From assembly GCA_964016885.1 (NCBI GenBank), contig OZ024743.1, positions 226,114,001 through 226,178,000 of the forward strand: a DNA stretch of 64,000 nt, in the 5' to 3' direction. The position numbers and the translations under genes are program-made. This DNA comes from Eledone cirrhosa. Lineage: Eukaryota. The notes below the pieces were generated by a model. That model did not search any database, was not told the DNA's origin, and saw only the letters and a program-made list of their open reading frames with translations. The first letter of the stretch is position 1. Every line of letters starts with the position of its first letter. Positions 32,294-33,360 of this stretch are shown here, in pieces.

Positions 32294-32399
32294 GTGTAGA
32301 TCCATATATATATATATCGCGTGACTATCTCCCCCTCCGCCTTTTGGGATTCTTTCTCACGTCGTGTAGACGCGTTCTTGGGACTAGTAAAATGAGGTA

Positions 32400-32487
32400 T
32401 CCTCTTGATAAGTCGGCAGACCTCGCAAGGACTCTATATCTTTGATATATTGTTTTTGTTTATGCCACGAAACTACGTAGTCGAGGA
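32400..32487 (+). ncRNA. Hammerhead ribozyme, family E (U3:A8 core, 57 nt stem II region)
   Basis: TCCTC TTGATAA gtcggca...tgccac GAAA CTACGTAG TC GAGGA. Confidence 0.78.
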
Positions 32488-32990
32488 ATTTAGGAACAGT
32501 TTAGGTATGATACATTTTATTACTAATTATATCTAAATGTTTCTTCTCTCTTCATAATGTATTTTTAACTCTGATACTGGTTCAGTCTGGTTCAAACTGA
32601 ATTGGTCTGTCCCAGTCATTCATTGAGCAACATCTGTGAAGTTGGCACCCTTAACTCACAGTTGGGTGCGGATGCATTCATGTATATATGTGTGTGTCAG
32701 CATGTATCTGTGTGTTTCTAAATATATTAATAACTCCCTCTGGTCGAGCAATCTTTGAGGTGTGGGGACAACTGGAAAGCTTCCATTACTCATACTTCTC
32801 GCCTTCTTCACTACCTCTTCTACGGCCTCGATATGAATACCCCCTCCGCCTCCGTGGTATTTTCTTCGTGGTTATAAGAGGCTTAGCTCTGTTTCTCGAC
32901 CGTTATATCGCGTGACTATCTCCCCCTCCGCCTTTTGGGATTCTTTCTCACGTCGTGTAGACGCGTTCTTGGGACTAGTAAAATGAGGTA

Positions 32991-33078
32991 TCCTCTTGAT
33001 AAGTCGGCAGACCTCGCAAGGACTCTATATCTTTGATATATTGTTTTTGTTTATGCCACGAAACTACGTAGTCGAGGA
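32991..33078 (+). ncRNA. Hammerhead ribozyme, family E
   Basis: Copy of 32400-32487, 591 nt downstream. Confidence 0.78.
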
Positions 33079-33309
33079 ATTTAGGAACAGTTTAGGTATG
33101 ATACATTTTATTACTAATTATATCTAAATGTTTCTTCTCTCTTCATAATGTATTTTTAACTCTGATACTGGTTCAGTCTGGTTCAAACTGAATTGGTCTG
33201 TCCCAGTCATTCATTGAGCAACATCTGTGAAGTTGGCACCCTTAACTCACAGTTGGGTGCGGATGCATTCATGTATATATGTGTGTGTCCGCATGTATCT
33301 GTGTGTTTC

Positions 33310-33360
<51 letters not shown>

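What the first reader, a model, noticed from the sequence alone, without database searches (positions are those of the whole stretch)
32316..33316. Family E: two ribozymes 591 nt apart in near-identical direct repeats
Seen: ~410 bp repeats around a ~185 bp unique spacer, no credible ORF, GUC sites at 32482 and 33073; a further dispersed copy at 19658-19878. Inference: double cleavage releases a 591 nt RNA that could circularise like retrozyme RNAs.
Basis: partly seen in the sequence, partly recalled or inferred. Interest (0 to 1): 0.7.

Follow-up and report, generated by a model that had tools for sequence, protein, structure and literature searches.

The report
Hammerhead retrozyme with Penelope insertion footprint
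This is one of thousands of young copies of a 591-base non-coding jumping repeat of a known kind, carrying a predicted self-cutting RNA motif, and the ends and shared variants of its copies suggest that a borrowed retrotransposon enzyme copies one small, likely circular, RNA into TA repeats from two fixed start points.

Summary
This is not two repeats around a unique spacer; it is 1.70 head-to-tail copies of a 591-nt non-coding monomer, each carrying a type I hammerhead (U3-A8 core, palindromic stem III, predicted cuts after 32482 and 33073). The 3.0-Gb genome holds 6,586 exact ribozyme matches. Copies end at one of two fixed sites and run into (TA)n (253 of 256 arms), have ragged 5' ends, and often form head-to-head pairs. 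In 85 of 92 pairs one arm ends at each site; none has the same site twice. This is the Penelope-like element (PLE) 'tail' footprint, and local Neptune-like PLEs share both the footprint and the U3-A8 core. Variants are mostly all-or-none within an insertion, pointing to one RNA template, likely a circle. 5' ends exactly at the cut site (7 vs 1 and 1 controls) hint at cleavage in vivo. Cleavage, circular RNA and the partner enzyme are untested. An A-to-G (editing) excess did not replicate. Verdict: a new member of the known animal non-LTR retrozymes. The scan already reported this family and model at other loci (unchecked notes).

The parts
32316..33318 (+). Whole insertion: one arm of 1.70 head-to-tail monomers, 5'-truncated at about unit position 589-1 and ending at site B (unit 412); unit position p = window 32315+p
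   Evidence: L001
32316..32906 (+). 591-nt monomer as used for numbering (41.6% GC, no ORF over 75 aa)
32483..33073 (+). Predicted cut-to-cut RNA monomer, 591 nt; folds better than shuffles (linear z -4.16, 0 of 100; circular z -4.3, 0 of 40)
32400..32487 (+). Type I hammerhead 1: stem I 32400-32404 with 32483-32487; core UUGAUAA 32405-32411 (U3-A8); long stem II 32412-32468; GAAA 32469-32472; self-complementary stem III 32472-32481; predicted cut after C32482
32991..33078 (+). Type I hammerhead 2, identical to 1; predicted cut after C33073
32540..32562 (+). Site A (unit 225-247; again at 33131-33153): first fixed 3' end of insertions, 80 nt after the cut site; 23 of 23 positions identical in the older subfamily
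33289..33318 (+). Site B (unit 383-412; also 32698-32727): second fixed 3' end, 245 nt after the cut site; this locus ends here
32728..32903 (+).
32304..32317 (.). Left (AT)n flank, with a short microhomology to the element's 5' junction
33313..33359 (.). Right (AT)n flank, the target into which site B runs
19655..19880 (-). Separate single-arm copy, 0.38 unit, ending at site A into (TA)n; hammerhead core at 19813, predicted cut after 19736
   Evidence: W19

Best explanation
This is a young copy of a non-coding, hammerhead-carrying tandem retroelement (an animal non-LTR retrozyme) inserted in a TA microsatellite, likely by the enzyme of a Penelope-like element copying one RNA template, predicted to be a 591-nt circle. 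Steps: (1) inferred: tandem copies are transcribed and two ribozymes pair through their palindromic stems III to cut at GUC/G, releasing a 591-nt monomer that a host ligase would close, as shown for other retrozymes; (2) inferred from junctions: a Neptune-like PLE protein nicks a (TA)n tract on both strands, and each DNA end primes reverse transcription at one of two fixed U/A-ending sites in the RNA, 80 and 245 nt after the cut; (3) shown as a genomic pattern: each cDNA runs for a variable length, often more than once round the unit, and the two are joined head-to-head (one A end and one B end), or one arm alone is joined to the target, as at this locus; (4) inferred: both arms and all units come from one template molecule.
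For: Tandem monomer with one hammerhead per unit, 6,586 exact matches, control 0. Ribozyme-essential positions are 43 of 43 identical between young and 81%-identical older subfamilies, against 447 of 537 elsewhere (p 8e-4); site A 23/23, site B 27/28. 253 of 256 arms ending at A or B run into (TA)n. Genome-wide junction counts: A 2,324, B 951+593. Head-to-head pairs in three samples: 41 of 45, 19 of 21 and 25 of 26 are A+B, 7 irregular, none A+A or B+B (one of the 85 is a segmental duplicate; p 4e-18 counting irregular ones as failures). The older subfamily follows the same rule, 16 clean A+B of 20 pairs and none same-same (read by eye). A PLE family here (L130, 938-codon open frame with RT and GIY-YIG, CX4CxxC linker) has a U3-A8 hammerhead, two fixed ends into (TA)n and one of each in 4 of 4 inverted insertions (by eye). 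PLE tails at one end only and two internal RT start sites with both strands extended are published (PMC8557442, PMC3846280 passages; PMC11167929 parts 1-2 of 4). Single template: divergence 0.39% within an arm, 0.34% between opposite arms, 1.31% between loci; 264 variant calls shared by all covering copies, 11 by some, 226 single; L091 has five private variants in all copies of both arms. 133 of 256 arms exceed one unit and 222 cross the cut site. 5' ends joined to (TA)n exactly at the cut site: 7 loci vs 1 and 1 at two control G positions (p 0.008, or 0.02 without the locus that prompted the test).
Against: No cleavage or RNA data. No two-sided covariation in the ribozyme helices in 38 distinct copies, and shuffles do as well. 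Rfam finds no hammerhead. Predicted folds hide stem I (P about 0 in the circle and in transcripts starting at unit 1 or 40). No sequence homology to any of 50 PLE stretches sampled, so the partner is not identified; several PLE families here have the U3-A8 core. Within-insertion distance was below the nearest other locus in only 21 of 58 insertions (6 ties). Over 4-nt windows the 5'-end counts are 7 vs 5 vs 5 loci, and other positions (around unit 343) collect more 5' ends than the cut site. In print, a PLE ribozyme was not needed for insertion in vitro (PMC11167929), and 8 of 9 Xenopus retrozyme dimers did not cleave (10.64898/2026.07.22.740005).
Confidence: 0.65

Rival explanations
1. Same element and same PLE enzyme, but the template is an uncleaved linear multimeric transcript; the ribozyme is slow or protein-dependent and no circle is involved.
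For: Unprocessed RNA was the dominant substrate for the anole PLE and its ribozyme needed protein (PMC11167929 part 2). Predicted folds mask stem I. 8 of 9 retrozyme dimers did not cleave in the 2026 preprint. It explains the two fixed ends and arms crossing the cut site equally well.
Against: Arrays could only shrink each generation (median arm 650 nt). Unit-to-unit differences of the source should be inherited, yet variants are all-or-none (264 vs 11 partial) and 28 private variants are fixed across an insertion. It does not explain 43/43 conservation of the ribozyme or 5' ends exactly at the cut site.
Confidence: 0.2
2. The ribozyme cuts, but the template is the linear 591-nt monomer; arrays arise when the reverse transcriptase jumps from the monomer's 5' end back to its own 3' end.
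For: Some cDNAs end exactly at the cut site, as expected for a linear 5' end. It gives the same single-template variant pattern.
Against: The junction at the cut site is exact in 6,586 matches, none of 7 indels of 4 nt or more lies there, and only 5 of 256 arms stop at 166-169; repeated jumps would be expected to leave scars and stops.
Confidence: 0.1
3. A satellite amplified at the DNA level (unequal crossing-over from a PLE terminal repeat), with the ribozyme as a relic.
For: This route is proposed for retrozyme arrays in the 2026 preprint. Head-to-tail arrays and within-array homogeneity fit it.
Against: Thousands of dispersed short insertions with fixed 3' ends in (TA)n, ragged 5' ends and inverted arms sharing private variants; ribozyme and end sites selectively conserved.
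Confidence: 0.03
4. A plant-type LTR retrozyme: two ribozyme-bearing terminal repeats around a unique interior, moved by an LTR retrotransposon.
For: At this one locus the 412-nt repeats flank 176-179 nt of other sequence.
Against: The interior is part of the monomer and arrays reach 7.3 units; the ribozyme is type I, not type III; 5' ends are not fixed.
Confidence: 0.02

Closest known systems
Animal non-LTR retrozymes (Cervera and de la Pena 2020, PMC7229834, parts 2-4 of 6 read, supplement unreadable; Li, Clavereau and Pollet 2026, bioRxiv 10.64898/2026.07.22.740005, parts 1-3 of 5 read)
   Same: Non-coding tandem repeats with a type I hammerhead in each unit, GC under 50%, thousands of copies, dimers to short multimers, predicted highly self-paired RNA, co-occurrence with PLEs.
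   Different: 591 nt is above the 150-450 bp of the 2020 paper but inside the 51-972 bp of the 2026 preprint. U3-A8 core and a 57-nt stem II. No classical target-site duplication can be read in (TA)n. The fixed two-site, one-per-arm ends and the single-template variant pattern are not described in the parts I read; the preprint favours array growth by unequal crossover. No PLE terminal-repeat homology was found here.
Neptune-clade Penelope-like elements and their pseudo-LTR 'tail' (PMC8557442 and PMC3846280 passages; PMC11167929 parts 1-2 of 4)
   Same: (TA)n targets, partial tandem and head-to-head copies, a tail at one end only that marks two RT start sites, both DNA strands extended, hammerhead upstream of the ends.
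   Different: No RT or GIY-YIG ORF. The tail is 165 nt, not 30-40 (66 nt in the local L130 PLE family, 30 nt in another repeat of this window). Here short A/U microhomology lies at both start sites, whereas the anole element starts at a site not homologous to the cut DNA.
U3-A8 minimal hammerheads of Schistosoma Cercyon PLEs (PMC4209133, passages and 2 of 3 supplement files searched)
   Same: Compensated core change U3-A8 instead of C3-G8, short palindromic helix III that suggests action as a dimer.
   Different: Here the motif sits in a highly homogeneous non-coding tandem monomer, with a longer stem III (10-nt palindrome) and a long stem II.
Plant LTR retrozymes (described in PMC7229834 and the 2026 preprint; the primary paper seen as a search listing only)
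   Same: Two ribozymes in direct repeats releasing a unit-length RNA of similar size.
   Different: Type III ribozyme, true LTRs, 4-bp target duplication and Gypsy mobilisation; none applies here.

Membership tests
Animal non-LTR retrozyme | Tandem repeats with a type I hammerhead in at least two consecutive units | tested here: met
Animal non-LTR retrozyme | No protein-coding capacity | tested here: met
   longest ATG frame 75 aa, stop-to-stop 86 aa in a tandem reading
Animal non-LTR retrozyme | Monomer of a few hundred nt, GC under 50%, predicted highly self-paired | tested here: met
   591 nt, 41.6% GC, z about -4.2; size inside 51-972 bp of the 2026 preprint, above 150-450 bp of the 2020 paper
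Animal non-LTR retrozyme | No LTRs | tested here: met
   permuted partial tandems with ragged 5' ends; PBS and PPT were not searched for
Animal non-LTR retrozyme | Target-site duplication longer than 4 bp when present | tested here: inconclusive
   both flanks are (TA)n, so a duplication cannot be read
Animal non-LTR retrozyme | Self-cleavage of the transcript | not testable with these tools
   indirect only: 7 vs 1 vs 1 exact 5' ends
Animal non-LTR retrozyme | Expressed as monomeric linear and circular RNA | not testable with these tools
   no RNA run listed
Type I hammerhead ribozyme | Core with a 3-8 pair, GAAA, A15-U16 pair, H17 and three helices | tested here: met
   U3-A8 core, GUC site, stems I-III; 43 of 43 essential positions conserved between subfamilies
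Type I hammerhead ribozyme | Helices supported by compensatory changes | tested here: inconclusive
   core helices nearly invariant; only one-sided A-U/G-U changes, no two-sided change
Type I hammerhead ribozyme | Match to an Rfam hammerhead model | tested here: not met
   no hammerhead hit at E up to 10; likely due to the variant core and long stem II (inference)
Autonomous Penelope-like element | ORF with RT and GIY-YIG endonuclease | tested here: not met
PLE-mobilised element | Head-to-head inverted copies with a tail at one end only | tested here: met
   85 of 92 pairs A+B, none same-same
PLE-mobilised element | (TA)n target as for Neptune-type PLEs | tested here: met
   253 of 256 arms
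PLE-derived element | Sequence homology to the terminal repeat of an autonomous PLE | tested here: not met
   no match beyond simple repeats in 50 GIY-YIG loci out of 10,596 first-look candidates; one retrozyme copy merely lies beside L125; the sample is small
Plant LTR retrozyme | Type III hammerhead in true LTRs around a unique interior | tested here: not met

The most novel reading that the evidence does not exclude
A dimeric Penelope-type protein loads one 591-nt RNA circle, made by a dimer-acting U3-A8 hammerhead, and copies it by rolling-circle reverse transcription from two fixed start sites at once, one on each strand of a cut (TA)n tract; A-to-I edits made on that circle are written into every unit of the new insertion, so the genome holds a fossil record of both the circle and its editing.
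Probability: 0.25. Interest if true: 0.8.

Novelty: new member of a known kind. Interest (0 to 1): 0.5.

Why it matters
How animal retrozymes get back into genomes is proposed, not shown: PLEs are the suspected helpers, and array growth is ascribed either to rolling-circle copying or to unequal crossover. This family gives countable genomic evidence for PLE-type insertion of ready-made arrays from a single template, and it names the exact start sites, cut site and candidate enzyme clade, so the idea can be tested with an existing in vitro PLE assay. The strict one-end-of-each rule also constrains the PLE mechanism itself (both strands primed on one RNA). The element class and the core variant are known, and the locus itself is one of thousands.

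Tried and rejected
Expression: no RNA holder listed. Runs X1 and X3 cover the unique flank with an exact 430-nt contig at depth 6-7 and look genomic. The 621- and 620-nt looped contigs in X2 and X6 arise equally from a collapsed DNA tandem, so they are not evidence of a circle. A-to-I editing of the template: all-copy variants are A>G at 30 sites vs T>C at 15 (singles 12 vs 38 events; p 3e-5), with few G 5' neighbours (2 of 30; p 0.024), and no matching C>T excess. But the pre-stated test on new sites failed (4 vs 3, p 0.26; second sample 3 vs 4), the older subfamily gave 6 vs 6, fixed lineage changes were 12 vs 9, and some sites change polarity with outgroups; selection for G-U pairing is an alternative. 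Kept as a lead only. Co-transcriptional switch (ribozyme folds before a downstream competitor): not supported, because an upstream hairpin masks stem I in the predictions, and my competitor indices were mis-set, so that column is void; the forced-fold energy there is also void (2-nt loop). Covariation: none two-sided in the ribozyme, 2 pairs in the downstream hairpin, not above shuffles. Partner search: a pattern for the same stem III with a shorter stem II returned 7 hits, all variants of this family. A canonical C3-G8 subfamily: at most 26 of 6,612 matches differ at positions 3, 7 or 8. Whole-window Rfam and repeat scans were swamped by microsatellites. Literature: no paper on this family or on the two-end rule in retrozymes surfaced in the listings; the library is incomplete, the 2020 supplement was unreadable and preprint supplements are closed, so examples may exist there.

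Full report
Observation. At offset 591 the window matches itself from 32313 to 32727 with one mismatch, and a third copy lies at 19655-19880 on the minus strand. A descriptor scan finds a type I hammerhead at 32400-32487 and 32991-33078 with predicted cuts after 32482 and 33073, and at the third copy. The core is UUGAUAA: U3 and A8 replace C3 and G8 together, a variant reported for Schistosoma PLE ribozymes (PMC4209133, passages). Stem II is 57 nt long with one bulged C. The ten nucleotides of stem III are perfectly self-complementary; they form no hairpin alone and a -12.9 kcal/mol duplex in pairs, the arrangement that lets tandem animal hammerheads work as dimers. Rfam does not recognise the motif.

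Anatomy. The window lies in a 3.0-Gb genome of 1,796 contigs; the organism is not given, and a cephalopod is my guess only. The 591-nt unit matches many loci at 99% as head-to-tail arrays, so the 'unique spacer' is the rest of the monomer and this locus is 1.70 monomers. The exact ribozyme pattern occurs 6,586 times, control 0; relaxing positions 3, 7 and 8 adds 26. I mapped three samples: 88 stretches found by similarity or by the ribozyme pattern, 40 found by an A end and 40 by a B end; 167 of 168 gave arms. Sense-strand 3' ends fall at unit 247 (A) or 412-414 (B), and 253 of 256 such arms run into (TA)n. Genome-wide there are 2,324 exact A junctions and 951+593 B junctions (lower bounds). 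5' ends are scattered over the unit; 133 of 256 arms exceed one unit, the longest 4,340 nt.

The two-end rule. About half the insertions are head-to-head pairs of arms. 85 of 92 pairs have one A end and one B end, 7 are irregular (two of them still A and B at their outer ends), and none is A+A or B+B; one of the 85 is a segmental duplicate. 55 of 90 central junctions overlap by at least 1 nt. An older subfamily, 81% identical, keeps both sites and the rule (16 clean pairs of 20, none same-same; read by eye). Between the subfamilies the ribozyme-essential positions are 43/43 identical, site A 23/23, site B 27/28, and all non-ribozyme positions 447/537. This pattern is the PLE 'tail', an extension present at one end only of inverted copies (PMC8557442 and PMC3846280, passages), which in vitro marks two internal RT start sites, with both DNA strands cut and extended (PMC11167929, parts 1-2 of 4). 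Here the tail is 165 nt.

Candidate helper. The genome has many GIY-YIG retroelements (150 scored of 10,596 candidates). One family (L130, L131, L135, L138, L139, L141) has RT plus GIY-YIG in a 938-codon open frame with the CX4CxxC linker of Neptune-type PLEs, a U3-A8 hammerhead, and two fixed ends into (TA)n about 76-82 and 142-148 nt after the cut. The first distance matches the retrozyme's 80 nt, and the second end resembles site B over a few bases. Its inverted insertions have one end of each kind in 4 of 4 cases. Its two terminal repeats in L130 are 656/659 identical, so it was recently active. Related PLE families also carry U3-A8 cores, and none of the 50 stretches shows homology to the monomer. 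The clade is implicated; the partner is not identified.

Template. For arms at least 96% identical and 150 nt long (434 segments, 138 loci; others dropped), divergence is 0.39% within an arm, 0.34% between opposite arms and 1.31% between loci (one pair in seven sampled); 264 variant calls are shared by all covering copies, 11 by some and 226 are single. 28 variants private to one locus are in all its copies, including both inverted arms, and a 20-nt deletion of the tip of stem II is shared by both tandem copies at L262. This fits repeated copying of one monomer-length template. Against over-reading: within-insertion distance beat the nearest other locus in only 21 of 58 cases, and 7 of 7 indels of 4 nt or more in the sample were single-copy. 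222 of 256 arms cross the cut site without a scar, so the template was continuous there: a circle, an uncut multimer, or a precise jump. 5' ends joined to (TA)n exactly at the first base after the cut occur at 7 loci, against 1 and 1 at two control G positions (p 0.008, or 0.02 without the prompting locus), while 4-nt windows give 7, 5 and 5. This is a modest hint that the ribozyme cuts in the germ line. Predicted folds keep stem I closed off in the circle, which would suit a stable template but equally suits a poor ribozyme.

Editing lead. All-copy variants are rich in sense-strand A>G (30 vs 15 T>C sites; singles 12 vs 38), as A-to-I editing of the template would give. The test I fixed in advance failed on new sites (4 vs 3, p 0.26), as did the second sample (3 vs 4) and the older subfamily (6 vs 6). 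I rate it about 0.3.

Comparison and verdict. All testable sequence features of animal non-LTR retrozymes are met (PMC7229834, parts 2-4 of 6; 10.64898/2026.07.22.740005, parts 1-3 of 5); cleavage and circular RNA could not be tested. Those papers propose PLE mobilisation from shared ribozymes, co-occurrence and terminal-repeat similarity; the parts I read do not describe the end rule or the single-template pattern, and my ten searches listed nothing that does, but supplements were partly unreadable. My reading was stated before the look-ups. Earlier unchecked notes of this scan describe the same 591-nt family and model at other loci, similar families in this and other genomes, and the editing idea; they are not independent support. 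Verdict: a real feature, a new member of a known kind, with unusually clear mechanistic footprints. Interest 0.5; confidence in the full mechanism 0.65, and about 0.9 in retrozyme identity with PLE-type insertion.

Noticed in passing
window 55578-56696: A second U3-A8 hammerhead repeat with a 316-nt period (cores at 56202, 56518 and 55781 minus), as a head-to-head pair whose arms end 138 and 168 nt after the cut into (TA)n: a classical 30-nt tail.
   Followed up: partly
window 14506, 18462, 31164 (+); 18343, 30832, 37643 (-): A family of canonical-core type I hammerheads, twice in inverted pairs (18343/18462 and 30832/31164).
   Followed up: no
window 54589-54662 (-): A lone canonical-core hammerhead with a 52-nt stem II beside a (TA)n run.
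   Followed up: no
window 11213-12775 (+): 520-codon open frame with a weak zf-RVT match (E 1e-4, below cut-off), probably a LINE remnant.
   Followed up: partly
window 3817-4352 / 9496-10019 and 49285-49654 / 51095-51464: Two long inverted repeats (96.6% and 99.5%) enclosing simple-repeat-rich interiors; probably other inverted retroelement insertions.
   Followed up: no
window 33745-33936 and from 34257: An extremely high-copy short repeat, SINE-like, judged from summed contig depth.
   Followed up: no
L130, L136, L142, L147, L148, L149: Several Neptune-like PLE families in this genome carry U3-A8 hammerheads with a four-base palindromic stem III, so descriptors requiring C3-G8 would miss them.
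   Followed up: partly
young copies, all samples: Single-copy changes lean to sense-strand T>C over A>G (38:12, p 0.023) and G>A over C>T (49:38, p 0.05), as wobble errors of an RT on a sense template would give.
   Followed up: partly
unit 336-349 (window 32651-32664): A hot spot of 5' ends at the foot of a long hairpin, more than at the cut site; possibly an RT stall.
   Followed up: no
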